64,000 nt of DNA from Callorhinchus milii (lineage: Eukaryota), in contig NW_024704754.1 of assembly GCF_018977255.1 (NCBI RefSeq), positions 17,174,001 to 17,238,000 of the forward strand, in the 5' to 3' direction. The first letter of the stretch is position 1, and each line of letters opens with the position of its first letter. This document shows, one piece after another, positions 32,401 through 38,400 of the stretch. Made by a program: the position numbers.

Positions 32401-35400
32401 TGTCACTGCCCTTTCCAAACAGTAAGAACCATTTGCCCTTCACCGCCAGCGAGAGGAATGGGAGTGCATCTGATTTACGTAGCAATGCTCAGCCCATCTG
32501 CTCTGTCCTGTAATGCCAATAAATGATCCCACTCCAGTCTATTACTCATATCCCTTTATTGGGGTGAAATTCCATCCAGGTCTATTTATGTAGCATTTCA
32601 TATAATAATAATAATAATAATAATCATTTTGCCTGCAAACAGCTAGCGGAATAACATTTGTCTTCTTGGTTTTCAGGGCAGCTATACTCTACCCGAAACA
32701 AGCTTTGACATCCCCAACTTGGATGTCCCTTACTGGCTAACCAACGGCGACTACAAGGGCAAAGCAGTGATGAGCAGCGGCAACCGAGAGCTGGCATGTG
32801 TCGAGCTCTCCTTCTCTTTCAAAACCACATGACGTTCAGTCGTTGTATTAAACACCAAAATGTACAGCTTTTGAATTGAAAGTAAATGCGAAGCGTTCAT
32901 TCGTTTCACTTGTTCTTTTTTACTGACTTACTGGTAGTTGGGTGAGGGCTGGGATTCTTCCCCGATATTCCTGGAAACCGAAGCAGGGAGGGGGTCCTAG
33001 TCGGACAAGCAGCGGGAAGCTTGCCAATGCTTAGCTCCAACATACACTCTGTGCTCTTAACCCATGGTGATGGGTTTCTGCACATGTTAGACACTTGACT
33101 GACCAAACAGAAGGTATTATCACTCTCATTGAGGTTCACTCACTCTCAAGGTAAAGATCATTTGACACTATCGAACCAATTCATTCGCCTGCAAAGTTTC
33201 TGAACTAACTGAGGTAACGGTATGCTACCCATTTAGATAAATAAATAGATTTTCGATGCAAAACATATGTGTTTATAGGCTCCAAAGCAATTTCGCTCAA
33301 GTGTTGGGCGAACGGAAGGAACAACTGCCGGACAGTTGATTCACACACAAGATGGCTTCACATCTCGAAAGCTTCACAGATCACAGCAAATTATAGTTTG
33401 TCTGCTTTAATTGGCCTCCAGCAACAATCACGTGCCTTAATTACTGTTTTCAATGATATGCGTGAGCGCAGTTATCAGTAACTTCATTCACTGGGGAAAA
33501 CCTTAGCTATATTTAGCAGGACTTTCTGTATCACTCAAAAACTTAATTTAATCTCTGTTGCTACTCATGCTGTGATTTCCCATCATGAGCAATGCTCATC
33601 CATCATGAAACCTAAGGCAAGTTTCCTTAGCAAGACGCTAAAAAACGCCTGTGTTGACTTAGCAAGACGTAGGAACCCAGTTGTTAGTCGACTGGCAGAT
33701 TGCTTTCTGGGGTTAATAAACCCTCCAAAATAAACAAATAAATAAAATTGCTCACTCACAAATATGGCCGTTTGTGAGACACTACTGTTAGAATTGGCTG
33801 CAGTGTTTCACCCACAAATTACACAGTCAATCCAGTTTAACAGTACAATCCGTGAGAAACTTTGAGCTGCCTCAATGATGTGATAAAGCGCTATATCAAA
33901 ATGCAAGGATTATTATTATTATCATCTCAGTAACAGAGCGTATAAGATGAATCCTTGCATTTTATGTAGTGCCTTATCAGAGGTTTCTGTGATGTGTAGT
34001 GACTGTGTATTTGTGGGCGAACGTCGCAGCCAATTTGAGCCTTGATACGTTTATAGGAAGCAACAGGAAAGAATGACAGAATCTCAAACTGTTGCTGAAT
34101 TCATTCATGTGACTCACACATAATATATATCTTCCTGAGGACTTTTGAGTTTCAGAGTTTAAAATTACAGACAAAATATCCCGGTATTACCCTTTAATAC
34201 ATACTCTTAGAGAAGGAAGTGGTGAGTTTGTACTTTATTTATCACAAGAATCACAGGTTTCAAATATAGAGACACCAAATTCCAACCGAGTAAATAATAA
34301 TAATAATAATCCTTGCATTTGGTACAAGCCAGGTCTGGATCAAGTTCAGCGTCATACAACCACTAATAACAATAATAATATAATAATAATTCTTGCATTT
34401 AATATAGCGCCTTATCGTGTGGTTGAGACGTCTCAAAGCGCTTCAGAGAATATACCGTAAAGTGGATGGACTGCATTTTGTGCGCGAAACACGGCAGCCA
34501 ATTGCGCACAGAGGCGTCCCCGCAAACAGTCAGGCATCGAGCGACCAGATTCTTATTTAANTTTTTTGGAAGGGATTATTACACCCGAAAGAGCAATCTG
34601 CCGATCGATTAGCAACCGGGTTCCTGCTTACTGCTCGGTAAACGGAGGTGTGTGGAGTAAGGAAACTCACCTGACAGAGATCTGTCAGCGCCTAACATGG
34701 AAAACAGAGCATTTCATGTTAAGGCTATAATCCAAGTGAAGTGGTTACACCCTATTACAGAAGGGTATTAAAAAAAAACTCTTACAAACCAAAGTTTTGT
34801 ATTCTTTTCGCCCGGAGATCGGAGTCGGACTGAAGATGTCTTTTCCCACCCGTGTCCTTATCCTGATCTTGTGCCTTCTCCACCGATCCAGACCAGTAAG
34901 TAATCCATACACACTTGACCAGTGCGTCTGAAATTAACTGCGTCCGTGTTAAACTCTCCAAAGGAAGTGTGTTGCAACCGTTTCCTGTAAATTGAAACGG
35001 GTAACAACAGGTTGTGGGCATGCACATTTAATGGACCTATCTTATTCCATTGACGTTCATTTCCTTTATCAAGATTTTACTCTTTTTATCCTCTGTCGTG
35101 TTGGCTTAATGCTGCACGTGATTTCACAGTGAGGGTTTAAATTTCTTGCATAGTGTCTTATCAAAGCTCTTAACGTATAACTATTGTCAAGGGTGGTGAC
35201 TTAGGCAAACATTTTGCACAGCAAACAGCAATGAAGTGAATTATTGATTTACTGGAGGGATTGTTGACCAGGGCGCCAGGAGAGAGCAACTCCCTTCTCT
35301 TTCAAATAGACTCACTGGATCGTTAACATCCGCCTGAACAGGCAGATGGAACTCAGGGGTGTCTGCCTTGACCCTAGAAAATAAGGAAAAATTGTACTGT

Positions 35401-38400
35401 GTGCCAGAGGATTTGCCTCTCACCCTACGTATGGGGTTAGAGGGTGGATAGACCAGGTCTGCTCTGGCCTCCTGCTTGTCCCCCATCCCCTGCGTTCCAC
35501 CATTGACGGCCGCCCTTTCAGCCACCACGCCCCGAAGCTTTGGAACTCTCTCCCTCGATCCCTCCATCTTGCCCTCTCCTGCCCGTCTTTTAAGTCACGA
35601 CTGAAGACCTTCCTCTTCGACCGTGCTGACCGTCACCTCCTCCCTCTCCACCGGCTCGGTGTCAGGCTCCGCCACTAAGGGTGGGTTCCCAATCTCAGCC
35701 TGACACAGACAGGGGATGGGGCTTTAACTGGGTCCTCCATTAGCAGAGCAGATGAGGGTTTCAGTCACTTGCTCATCTCAATTGCTAAGGAAATGGCAGA
35801 GCATTTTACCCTTTGTGTGCATTGGGGGATAGATTAACACAATCTCATGACGGACAGTCACCTCTTTAGTTGTGAATCGAGTCAACATGCTGTACTACGC
35901 TTATATCTTTTACCCCTTTTATATTAGTCAGAAGGCTTCTCCTGGAAAAACTGCAAGACTAATAATCAGCCTATCACAATCCAAAGCCTCTCCATCAAAC
36001 CCGATCCCGTTAGAATGCCGGGTGGTATCTCAGTGAAAGGATCTGCCTTTTTAAGCCAAGCCATCTCATCACTAAAGGTGGGTAACTCTAACCATATCTA
36101 ACCGTAGAGACAGATTTATTTCCCTTGTTCTCCGAACACGAGAAAGAATCCACTCTGTGCCTCCTCCATGCAGGATGGACAATCCAGGGAGAACTTGACA
36201 TTTAAGAGCGTAACTTGTGCCATTTCACAACACATTCCTTGTGATAATAATATTAATAATAATAATAATAATGGATAATCGTTGTATTTAATACAGAGCC
36301 TTATCCTGCCGTTGAGACGTCTGAAAGCACTTCACAGAATATACTATGAAGGGGATTGCAATATATTCTGGGAAGTGCTTATTTTGCCACCTCATGAAAC
36401 ACTGCAGATTTCATCCTCTATTTTCAACCTGATTTGTGTGCCTGAGCAACGCTCCTTTTTCTTAAAAATCTGTTTCAGGCTGAAATAACATTGTACAGGA
36501 AGGTCCTTTTCTTCTGGTTGAAAATCCCCTGCGTGACTTTTGACTGCGTGTATGAAGTTTGCAAGTTACTGAAACGTGATCCGTCCTGTTCTTTCAAACA
36601 AGTGAGTCTCAAACCTGGCAGAGGGTAAATGGTGAAAAAAATTATTCCAGCCTTTTGGCAAATTGCACACATTCTCCAGCTGTTACTGAATTCAGGAGTA
36701 AGTTTTTTTTGGGGGGGTCTTGTCATCTACATTAGTTTGTCTCCATCTAACACCTACAACTGACCCGGAGGGTCAAGAGCAGAGTCTGTCATGATCAGTG
36801 CTGTACCGCTCAATTTTTACAGAGAGAAAAACAGGTGCCAAATATTGCTGCCATCTCTACTACTGCGGTTGATGTGACTCCACTATGTTCTCCTTCCTGT
36901 GAATCTGGGCTATGGCGAGCGGAAATTGCTGTAGAAAGAGATAGCTCCATTGGAAACGACTCTCATCAGAAACGACTCTTATGCTCTGTGTAGATGTGCA
37001 AGAGCCAACTGCGTAGTGCGTACTCTACAAGTTTCTTTTGAAAAGGAAACCTGGCCTTACCCTGGTTTGTTGGCAGCGTAGACGCAACTGTGATTGGTAT
37101 CTATCTCGTGTTTGATCTGTTGACATTTGCGGTCGCCTGCATTGGTTCACTGCCTCGGTTCGAAGGAGAAACGTGGCACTTATGCTGGTCTTCTATGTAT
37201 GTTTCAGGGATTTCACAAGTTCCCGGGAAAAGCGTTCGTCATTCCACGACTACCCATCCCAAATGGCCAATACAGCATAGCCATTGACCTGAAGAGTCAC
37301 AGAAGGAATGTTGGGTGTGTGCAGATGGACCTGACTGTTAAAAAGAATTAACTTATGCCCGCATGGGGAACAAAATAACACCGTGTAACCTCAGATCTTT
37401 ATTAATAATAATAATAATAATCCTTGCATTTGATATAGAGCCACATCACATCATTGTGACATCTAGAGAACGCTTCACAGAGGATACTGTCAAGTGAATT
37501 GACTCTGTATTTTGTCGGCGAAACATATCTTACTTTCAATCACATGGAGTTGAATGTTAAATGTTATCCCTTAAATTAAAATGTGTCTCCTCATCTAGGC
37601 AATTGAAGGTGAAATCCACCTTTAATAGAATCTTGAAAATCTCCCGTCTGCTCAATAAAACAAAAAACATCAGAATTTGTCACAAATTCTTATCTGACAT
37701 TTTAGCCAATTTAGTCGTAAATTCTGTGACATTAACGATTGCAATGACACAGTCTATTCATTCATACAATCTTTCAGCGGATCAATAGAATCATTCACAA
37801 GGGAACCAGATAAGATCCTGACTCACACAAATGGAGGTTAATTCATGAACTGTTATAATTATAATAATAATAATAATCCTTGCATTTGATACAGCGCCTT
37901 ATCACATCTTCGAGCCATCTCAAAGCGCTTCACAGAAAATACTGTAAAGTCAATTGACTGTTATATATTTTTTTAAACAATTATTGCCCCCAAAAAGCAA
38001 TCCGCCAATCAACTAACAACTGGGTTCCTACTTACTGCCAAGTAAACAGAGGTGTGTGGAGTGAGGAAACCTGTGCAACATTTCGCCCTGGCCGGGAATC
38101 GAACCCAGGTCTCTCGCTCGTGAGGCGAGTGCTCTAACCACTGAGCTGCAGGACACCATGATCTACTTCATCAGCCAAGTTCTCGTGGGTTAATAGGAAT
38201 TCAACAGAGATATACCTTCCTCGCTACTCCATGAGCGATAGACCAGCAATCTCAGGTGACCTGTCCTGTTGCCTCAGGGGTCCCGTGCAGTTACCAGTCA
38301 CTTCCAATAGGGGGCGAGAGCGTAATGGAAACAAAGCATTTCTTGTCCGTTTTCACCTGATACGCAAGTGAGGGGTGAGAAGATTCAAACTCCGTCCCAG

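What the first reader, a model, noticed from the sequence alone, without database searches (positions are those of the whole stretch)
34836..37351. Hidden second GM2-activator-like gene: a tandem ML-domain cluster
Seen: four phase-0 GT-AG exons splice to an uninterrupted 158-aa protein with a signal peptide and the GM2A motifs FSWxNC, SLSIKPDP, WLKIPC, NGxY and GCV, although the ORF track shows only exon 4. Known: mammals have one functional GM2A at this locus. Inference: a lineage-specific tandem family (A canonical, B divergent, C decayed). An open frame with intact splice sites despite deep divergence implies selection. I cannot check whether it is already annotated.
Basis: partly seen in the sequence, partly recalled or inferred. 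Interest (0 to 1): 0.8.

Follow-up and report, generated by a model that had tools for sequence, protein, structure and literature searches.

The report
Second GM2-activator-like gene in chimaera
Next to the ordinary GM2 activator gene of an elephant-shark-like fish lies an intact, shorter sister gene whose counterparts are already predicted in sharks and rays, so it is a real but fairly ordinary gene-family member.

Summary
Four phase-0 exons (34836-34895, 35928-36077, 36479-36601, 37208-37351) are open, with all three AG acceptors and all three GT donors intact.

Copy B lies 2 kb downstream of a canonical four-exon, 193-aa GM2A (copy A, 29573-32832). Copy A is about 99% identical to Callorhinchus milii GM2A. 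I do not take the contig for human.

B is not a private oddity. It belongs to a short, six-cysteine "ganglioside GM2 activator-like" subfamily that RefSeq already predicts in 8 elasmobranch species. Members share a 41-residue exon 3 that lacks a loop carrying two cysteines.

Each B exon scores higher on a profile of that subfamily than on a canonical profile. Each also falls outside the canonical group in per-exon trees. A skate orthologue models as a GM2-activator beta-cup.

Copy C is only a lone last-exon relic (38931-39092).

No matching Callorhinchus protein turned up in the collections searched.

Expression is untested.

Verdict: a real gene and a new member of a known kind, of modest interest.

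The parts
29573..29653 (+). Copy A (canonical GM2A) exon 1, 27 codons, signal-peptide exon
   Evidence: matched by C. milii GM2A P0001 residues 1-28
30984..31145 (+). Copy A exon 2, 54 codons
   Evidence: (98% to P0001)
32239..32421 (+). Copy A exon 3, 61 codons, six cysteines
32677..32832 (+). Copy A exon 4, 51 codons plus TGA
34836..34895 (+). Copy B exon 1: ATG, 20 codons, hydrophobic N-terminus, donor GTAAGT
   Evidence: aligns without gaps to the 20-residue N-termini of elasmobranch B-type proteins
35928..36077 (+). Copy B exon 2, 50 codons, acceptor AG, donor GTGGGT
   Evidence: ML domain E 0.0022; best solved-structure match GM2 activator, E 5.4e-07
36479..36601 (+). Copy B exon 3, 41 codons, four cysteines; short form lacking the loop with two cysteines
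   Evidence: (+20.4 bits for the B-type profile)
37208..37351 (+). Copy B exon 4, 47 codons plus TAA; lacks 4 residues of the lid loop
37654..37659 (+). AATAAA, candidate poly(A) signal of B, 303 nt after its stop (ATTAAA also at 37575)
   Evidence: use as a signal is inferred
38931..39092 (+). Copy C: lone exon-4-like relic. Acceptor AG, 53 open codons, TAA; the conserved cysteine is replaced by arginine; AATAAA follows at 39110
   Evidence: P0005 E 4.7e-06; E 0.001

Best explanation
Copy B is an intact protein-coding paralogue of GM2A in a Callorhinchus-like (chimaera) genome. It is the counterpart of the short 'ganglioside GM2 activator-like' genes of sharks, rays and skates. The duplication that made it most likely predates the split of chimaeras from elasmobranchs. 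The subfamily lost one surface loop together with the two cysteines it carries, leaving six cysteines (three likely disulfides), and kept the four-exon, all-phase-0 structure. Inferred mechanism: a signal peptide sends the product into the secretory or lysosomal route. The mature ~138-residue protein folds as a GM2-activator-type beta-cup and carries a lipid in its hydrophobic pocket. Its specificity or partner has probably changed. The chimaera copy lacks four residues of the lid loop, including the lid tryptophan. It has no N-glycosylation site and a net charge of +13, which points away from the classical mannose-6-phosphate-tagged cofactor of hexosaminidase A. Shown: gene anatomy, homology, subfamily features and the fold of an orthologue. 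Inferred: expression, secretion, lipid binding and changed function.
For: Anatomy: all splice sites and frames are intact. Exon length differences from A are -21, -12, -60 and -12 nt, all multiples of 3.

Homology: exons 2, 3 and 4 each have GM2 activator as best solved-structure sequence match, in colinear order (E 5.4e-07, 0.015, 0.54).

Orthologues: an exhaustive phmmer search with exon 2 gave 59 proteins at E<=0.001. Four of the 59 are B-type by profile comparison. A profile of those four found 10 proteins among 2516 candidates. Nine are named, from 8 elasmobranch species, and 8 of the 9 are 158-166 aa long.

Shared derived features: B and all 9 elasmobranch proteins lack the 17-18-residue stretch with two cysteines. 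They also share smaller gaps at the end of exon 2 and within exon 3. All 10 canonical comparators have the long, six-cysteine exon 3.

Profile log-odds, B-type minus canonical: +6.2, +20.4 and +8.2 bits for exons 2-4.

Per-exon trees: the canonical group excludes the B exon with support 97, 99 and 89.

Conserved residues: 22 of 26 columns invariant in the 9 elasmobranch proteins carry the same residue in B.

Fold: the skate orthologue P0063 gave a model with pLDDT 84.2 and pTM 0.75. Its seven best solved-structure matches are all GM2 activator (E 1.2e-14 to 5.3e-13, TM 0.69-0.72), followed by NPC2, MD-2 and Der p 2.

Constraint: 64 of 1422 single-base changes would create a stop. Adding 3 start-codon and 12 splice-site bases, neutral drift of roughly 4-8% would usually have disabled the gene (my estimate; the lower figure assumes one indel per ten substitutions). 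Yet A and B differ at 71% of synonymous sites.

Lid loop: B's 4-residue gap lies opposite residues 131-134 of chain 1g13_A. These include the Trp133 lid of loop 127-135 in 2AG2 numbering (passages of PMC7109084).

Charge and glycosylation.
Against: No expression evidence: no RNA-seq or cDNA could be consulted.

Raw identity does not separate the groups. B is 36-46% identical to the nine elasmobranch B-type proteins and 39% (53 of 137) to its neighbour A.

In the per-exon trees B does not form a supported clade with the elasmobranch proteins. It attaches next to the stem of the canonical group with support 72, 33 and 39. Orthology therefore rests on shared indels and profile scores.

Per-exon Pfam matches stay under the curated cut-off: exon 2 gives 18.8 bits against 22.7, and exons 1 and 3 give nothing.

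The lid-loop deletion, the +13 charge and the missing glycosylation site are unique to this copy among the sequences compared. They could equally mark relaxed constraint.

The fold was modelled for an orthologue, not for B.

A-B dN/dS (0.29) is unreliable because dS is near saturation, and it cannot be assigned to B's branch.
Confidence: 0.75

Rival explanations
1. B is a recently inactivated or unexpressed pseudogene that still happens to look intact.
For: Features unique to this copy could reflect relaxed constraint: loss of four lid-loop residues including the tryptophan, net charge +13 against -4 to +5 in the elasmobranch proteins, and no N-glycosylation sequon. No Callorhinchus protein of this kind appeared in the collections searched, although the canonical one did. 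The neighbouring copy C shows that decay happens in this cluster.
Against: There is no stop, frameshift or broken splice site in 158 codons and six splice dinucleotides. All six subfamily cysteines and 22 of 26 subfamily-invariant residues are kept. By my estimate, only about 4-8% neutral divergence would be tolerated. All length changes are in frame.
Confidence: 0.15
2. B arose by an independent, holocephalan-specific duplication of GM2A and lost the same loop convergently, so it is not the orthologue of the elasmobranch GM2A-like genes.
For: B is as similar to its neighbour A (39%) as to the elasmobranch proteins (36-46%). Per-exon trees place B beside the canonical stem without support for a clade with the elasmobranch proteins.
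Against: Several indels are shared with all 9 elasmobranch proteins, including the 17-18-residue deletion with the same two cysteines. Every exon prefers the B-type profile, by +34.8 bits in total. A and B share no similarity outside repeats at the DNA level, and synonymous sites are near saturation, so the duplication is old. A position at the base of the B-type group is what the species tree predicts for a chimaera.
Confidence: 0.07
3. The B exons are alternative exons of the canonical GM2A transcript unit rather than a separate gene.
For: B has the same strand as A and lies only 2 kb downstream of A's stop codon.
Against: B has its own ATG with A at -3, its own signal-peptide-like exon, its own stop and its own AATAAA. 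A has its own stop, and ATTAAA/AATAAA signals lie before B. Orthologues are annotated as separate proteins with their own N-termini.
Confidence: 0.03

Closest known systems
Elasmobranch 'ganglioside GM2 activator-like' proteins. These are RefSeq predictions, e.g. Stegostoma tigrinum P0008, Heterodontus francisci P0061, Leucoraja erinacea P0063, Hemitrygon akajei P0005 and Scyliorhinus canicula P0065.
   Same: About 158-166 aa, with a 20-residue N-terminal hydrophobic segment. Short exon-3 region with four rather than six cysteines. The same small gaps. 22 of 26 invariant residues shared.
   Different: Only 36-46% identical. The window's copy alone lacks four residues of the lid loop. It carries net charge +13 against -4 to +5 and has no N-glycosylation sequon; 4 of the 9 elasmobranch proteins also lack one. 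Elasmobranchs seem to have two sub-types, since S. torazame has both. The window has one intact copy plus relic C.
Canonical GM2 activator protein (GM2A; solved structures 1G13, 2AG2, 2AGC; copy A of this window)
   Same: Four exons, all phase 0, with junctions at equivalent alignment positions. The cysteine near the N-terminus pairs positionally with the one near the C-terminus. Shared motifs around the first cysteine and the proline-cysteine of exon 3. The orthologue model matches the beta-cup fold at TM 0.69-0.72.
   Different: Six instead of eight cysteines. The missing pair corresponds, by my recollection of the human disulfide map, to Cys125-Cys136, and the loop between them is deleted too. 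The lid loop is shorter and lacks the tryptophan (PMC7109084 passages). No glycosylation sequon, whereas A has NVT. Strongly basic, whereas A is near neutral. A cofactor role for hexosaminidase A is untested.
Other ML-domain lipid binders (NPC2, MD-2/MD-1, Der p 2)
   Same: Small secreted beta-sandwich or beta-cup lipid binders. They follow GM2 activator among the fold matches for the orthologue model (E 3e-07 to 1e-04). Exon 2 gives a weak ML-domain match.
   Different: Much more distant (13-18% identity). Gene structure and motifs are those of GM2A, not of these families.

Membership tests
GM2 activator / ML domain (Pfam PF02221) | Match to the Pfam ML-domain profile above the curated cut-off | tested here: inconclusive
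   Tested exon by exon only. Exon 2 gives E 0.0022 and 18.8 bits against a cut-off of 22.7; exon 4 gives a weak ML-like TRP_N match (E 0.15); exons 1 and 3 give none. The whole spliced protein was not submitted. 6 of the 9 named orthologues carry a precomputed PF02221 match.
GM2 activator / ML domain (Pfam PF02221) | Sequence homology to solved GM2 activator proteins, colinear along the chain | tested here: met
   Exons 2, 3 and 4 have best matches to GM2 activator chains at residues 2-36, 52-84 and 113-159.
GM2 activator / ML domain (Pfam PF02221) | Gene structure of vertebrate GM2A: four coding exons with the same junction positions | tested here: met
   Copies A and B both have four exons, all phase 0, and their junctions fall at the same alignment columns.
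GM2 activator / ML domain (Pfam PF02221) | Eight conserved cysteines (four disulfides) of canonical GM2 activator | tested here: not met
   B has six cysteines in exons 2-4. A and all 10 canonical comparators have at least eight.
GM2 activator / ML domain (Pfam PF02221) | Beta-cup fold with a hydrophobic pocket | tested here: inconclusive
   Only the skate orthologue P0063 was modelled (pLDDT 84.2). Its best solved-structure matches are GM2 activator, TM 0.69-0.72. B itself was not folded because the joined model was left out.
GM2 activator / ML domain (Pfam PF02221) | Stimulates hydrolysis of GM2 by hexosaminidase A | not testable with these tools
   Needs a biochemical assay. The role of the canonical protein is taken from passages of PMC7178057.
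Chondrichthyan short GM2 activator-like subfamily | Short exon-3 region lacking the loop with two cysteines | tested here: met
   B exon 3 has 41 residues and four cysteines. Its gap is the same as in all 9 elasmobranch proteins.
Chondrichthyan short GM2 activator-like subfamily | Each exon scores higher on the subfamily profile than on a canonical profile | tested here: met
   +6.2, +20.4 and +8.2 bits for exons 2-4. B was not in the training set.
Chondrichthyan short GM2 activator-like subfamily | Forms a clade with the subfamily in a tree | tested here: inconclusive
   Per-exon trees exclude B from the canonical group (support 97, 99, 89) but do not support a clade of B with the elasmobranch proteins. 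No full-length tree was made.
Chondrichthyan short GM2 activator-like subfamily | Lies in tandem with GM2A in other species | not testable with these tools
   No vertebrate genome collection was available. Genome contigs holds only bacteria and archaea.

The most novel reading that the evidence does not exclude
Cartilaginous fishes carry an ancient GM2-activator paralogue with three disulfides that no paper in the searched library describes. It may go back to their common ancestor. In the chimaera this paralogue has been remodelled into a lid-less, unglycosylated, strongly cationic (+13) secreted lipid binder. Its job would no longer be to serve hexosaminidase A; binding anionic or microbial lipids is one possibility. 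The lone exon C, with its intact acceptor, open frame, stop and AATAAA, might serve as an alternative last exon.
Probability: 0.2. Interest if true: 0.55.

Novelty: new member of a known kind. Interest (0 to 1): 0.35.

Why it matters
GM2A is treated as a single-copy lysosomal cofactor gene in mammals (background knowledge). An old, conserved, structurally trimmed sister gene in cartilaginous fishes is a natural experiment on which parts of the activator are needed for lipid binding and which for enzyme docking. It is also a small annotation gain for a reference chimaera genome. The practical consequence is limited, because the family is already predicted in other species and nothing here points to a new mechanism.

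Tried and rejected
- **Further copies.** A 9-residue match at 14564-14590 (E 0.05) lies in the tail of an interspersed repeat and has no profile support, so I rejected it as chance. Weak matches at 38616-38699 (E 0.008-0.34; E 0.09) fall on the conserved tail of the same repeat family seen at 30880-30960 and 31900-31930; rejected. Weak matches at 37570-37663 (E 4.6 and 9, in different frames, no donor site) are also rejected. C therefore has no detectable exons 1-3.
- **DNA comparison of the A, B and C loci.** Only interspersed repeats match, not the exons. This gives no evidence of a recent duplication.
- **Word-index search with B exon 2 for longer proteins.** 6 candidates, none scored. The control with A exon 2 found C. 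milii GM2A.
- **Cluster look-up for names.** It could not be made.
- **A-B dN/dS.** Computed from per-exon counts, but synonymous sites are near saturation.
- **Literature.** Searches ('GM2 activator'+shark: 3 unrelated papers; GM2A+Callorhinchus: 0 papers; 'ganglioside GM2 activator-like': 4 papers, all on invertebrates; 'GM2 activator'+paralog+tandem: 8 unrelated papers) found nothing on this subfamily. I saw listings only. Supplementary files were not consulted.
- **Left out on instruction.** Any search, fold or tree with the joined 158-aa model.
- **Not used.** Complex prediction, the protein atlas and genome contigs (prokaryotes only).
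Full report
**What is in the sequence**

The stretch 34836-37351 holds four open pieces of 60, 150, 123 and 144 nt. AG precedes exons 2-4, GT follows exons 1-3, and a TAA sits at 37349-37351. All junctions are phase 0, giving 20+50+41+47 codons.

The start codon has A at -3. An AATAAA lies 303 nt after the stop. Reading on past the end of exon 2 meets a stop after 8 codons, so the long frame exists only if the pieces are spliced.

Random stretches of the same lengths in this window are open with fractions 0.45, 0.15, 0.20 and 0.17, product 0.0024. 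The window has a single N at 34561, upstream of the gene, which I did not try to resolve.

**Whose genome, and what lies around it**

Two kilobases upstream lies a canonical copy A on the same strand: 29573-29653, 30984-31145, 32239-32421 and 32677-32832, four phase-0 exons, 193 codons.

- Its exon 2 found one protein among 22 candidates: UniRef 'Ganglioside GM2 activator', Callorhinchus milii, 98% identical.
- By my reading, A differs from that protein at 2 of 193 positions.
- That protein matches four solved GM2 activator sequences at E 1e-62 to 1e-59.

The window therefore comes from Callorhinchus milii or a very close relative. I do not take it for human.

The flanks carry three exon-like pieces of an amino-acid transporter (Aa_trans; I read it as SLC36-like) on the minus strand at 8-19 kb. 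Immunoglobulin-like exons, one of the VEGFR-1-like kind, lie on the minus strand at 58-62 kb.

**Copies in the window**

Each B exon finds its A counterpart: E 5.3e-10, 2.2e-05 and 1.0e-04 for exons 2-4.

A six-frame scan of 3027 stop-to-stop pieces, with profiles built from database proteins, found only three things:

- the three A exons;
- the three B exons;
- one further piece at 38910-39077 (E 0.001 on the B-type profile, 0.56 on the canonical one).

That third piece, copy C, is 38931-39092. It has an AG acceptor, 53 open codons, a TAA and an AATAAA 18 nt later. The conserved cysteine near the C-terminus is an arginine. Its best match is the stingray B-type protein P0005 (E 4.7e-06).

No exon 1-3 counterpart of C was found. 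The weak candidates fall on repeat tails or lack splice sites. An open frame of 53 codons is not remarkable in itself. C is a lone last-exon relic.

At the DNA level the three loci share only interspersed repeats.

**Relatives elsewhere, searched exon by exon**

The joined 158-residue protein was never built, searched, folded or placed in a tree. That leaves open a whole-protein Pfam score, a full-length tree and a model of B itself.

- A word-index search with exon 2 for longer proteins found nothing: 6 candidates, none scored.
- The exhaustive phmmer search with exon 2 gave 59 proteins at E<=0.001.
- By comparison with two local profiles, 4 of the 59 are B-type: P0005, P0006, P0008 and P0017.
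- A further 49 score higher on the canonical profile, one is a tie (P0007), and five score low on both (P0002, P0010, P0012, P0032, P0060).
- An alignment of the four B-type hits then found 10 proteins among 2516 candidates.

Nine of the 10 are named, and 7 of them are called 'ganglioside GM2 activator-like'. The species are Stegostoma tigrinum, Mustelus asterias, Hemitrygon akajei, Heterodontus francisci, Chiloscyllium punctatum, Leucoraja erinacea, Scyliorhinus torazame (two proteins) and Scyliorhinus canicula. The tenth is an unnamed 77-residue fragment.

None is from Callorhinchus, and none matched B exon 2 at more than 53% identity. B's own product therefore seems absent from these collections, although A's is present. 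Whether RefSeq annotates B in this genome stayed unchecked. The cluster look-up could not be made.

**Why B belongs with the short subfamily**

I aligned the nine elasmobranch proteins with ten canonical-type proteins, keeping B's exons as separate rows.

- B and all nine lack a 17-18-residue stretch of exon 3 that carries two cysteines in every canonical sequence.
- They share smaller gaps at the end of exon 2 and within exon 3.
- Cysteine counts are 6 for B and 6-7 for the nine, against at least 8 for A and the ten canonical proteins.
- B's exons prefer the B-type profile by +6.2, +20.4 and +8.2 bits. B was not used to build that profile.
- In per-exon maximum-likelihood trees the canonical sequences form a group that excludes the B exon, with support 97, 99 and 89.
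- 22 of 26 columns invariant in the nine proteins have the same residue in B.

Results that cut the other way:

- Raw identity does not discriminate. B is 36-46% identical to the nine proteins and 39% (53 of 137) to A.
- In the trees B attaches next to the canonical stem with weak support (72, 33, 39), rather than in a supported clade with the nine.

A position at the base of the subfamily is what a chimaera gene should show. The trees alone cannot exclude an independent duplication, so the shared indels carry the argument.

The elasmobranch proteins fall into two sub-types, and S. torazame has one of each. Relic C leans weakly toward the ray-like sub-type, matching 18 of 51 positions with P0005 against 10-14 with the other eight. 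A third ancestral copy is possible but not shown.

**Selection**

- A and B share 57 of 138 aligned residues in exons 2-4. From summed per-exon counts, pS is 0.71 and pN 0.42, a ratio of about 0.29.
- Synonymous sites are near saturation, and the ratio cannot be assigned to B's branch.
- 64 of 1422 single-base changes in B would create a stop.
- Adding 3 start-codon and 12 splice-site bases gives about 36 disabling site-equivalents. Neutral drift of about 8% would leave a 5% chance of an intact gene. The figure falls to about 4% if one indel per ten substitutions is assumed. This is my estimate and the indel rate is an assumption.
- All exon length differences from A are multiples of three.

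Together with the conserved orthologues, this says B was constrained for nearly all of its history. A recent loss of function cannot be excluded without transcripts.

**How it most likely works**

The canonical protein is a lipid-binding and lipid-transfer cofactor that presents GM2 to hexosaminidase A (passages of PMC7178057).

A model of the skate orthologue P0063, built from a 19-sequence alignment, has pLDDT 84.2 and pTM 0.75. Its seven best solved-structure matches are all GM2 activator (E 1.2e-14 to 5.3e-13, TM 0.69-0.72), followed by NPC2, MD-2 and Der p 2. The trimmed subfamily thus keeps the beta-cup.

The two missing cysteines correspond to positions 94 and 105 of the mature mouse chain, by my count on the alignment. 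By my recollection of the human disulfide map, these pair with each other (Cys125-Cys136 of the precursor). One stapled loop would then have been lost cleanly.

The chimaera copy has extra peculiarities:

- A four-residue gap opposite residues 131-134 of chain 1g13_A. This removes the tryptophan described as the lid of the pocket in flexible loop 127-135, 2AG2 numbering (passages of PMC7109084).
- No N-glycosylation sequon, whereas A has NVT.
- A net charge of +13 over 138 residues, against -1 for A, -4 to +5 for the nine orthologues and -8 to +6 for the canonical comparators.

I infer a secreted or endolysosomal lipid binder with altered specificity or partner. The same peculiarities would also fit early decay.

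**Comparison with what is known, and verdict**

B is a GM2A-family gene by homology and gene structure, but it fails the eight-cysteine pattern of canonical GM2 activator. It fits the short elasmobranch 'GM2 activator-like' subfamily.

Four literature searches listed no paper on such a gene in cartilaginous fishes. I saw listings only, and supplements were closed.

The novelty is modest: a new member, probably unannotated in the collections searched, of a subfamily that annotation pipelines already predict in other species.

Noticed in passing
window 8224-8532, 11474-11812, 18628-18927 (minus strand): Three exon-like open pieces match the amino-acid transporter family Aa_trans at successive profile positions (E 1.9e-09, 0.017, 6.7e-08). 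This is probably an SLC36-type transporter gene upstream of GM2A.
   Followed up: partly
window 58475-58750, 59982-60314, 60503-60922, 61567-61899 (minus strand): Exon-like pieces with immunoglobulin I-set and VEGFR-1-like Ig domains (E 1.3e-05 and 2e-14). They look like the extracellular part of a class III receptor tyrosine kinase; that reading is from recollection only.
   Followed up: partly
window 53885-54196 and 54724-55011 (plus strand): Two open pieces with coiled-coil-like sequence and only weak Pfam matches (E 0.078 and 0.0025). They may be exons of a coiled-coil gene downstream of the cluster.
   Followed up: no
window 25840-27542: C-rich tandem arrays with periods 9-109 and about 68% G+C, with extreme strand skew, lie 2 kb upstream of copy A. 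They create long spurious open frames on both strands.
   Followed up: partly
window 3311-3381, 25553-25629, 38083-38155, 42556-42628; also 30679-30900, 35461-35676, 38510-38677: Four tRNA-like hits (Ala, Ala, Val, Ala) look like heads of tRNA-derived interspersed repeats. A second repeat family sits in intron 1 of both A and B and upstream of relic C at 73-81% identity. It is probably independent insertions of a common element.
   Followed up: partly
window 34743-34835: The in-frame stretch just upstream of B's ATG has no ATG of its own and follows a TGA at 34737. It shows a weak resemblance (E 0.003 together with the signal peptide) to the N-terminal extension of the S. torazame model P0064, which Mustelus P0017 shares. 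Either a 5' element is conserved or those two models start too far upstream.
   Followed up: no
proteins P0064 and P0066 (Scyliorhinus torazame): One shark species has two different short GM2A-like proteins. They fall into a shark-type and a ray-type group in the per-exon trees, so elasmobranchs may carry two B-type genes.
   Followed up: partly
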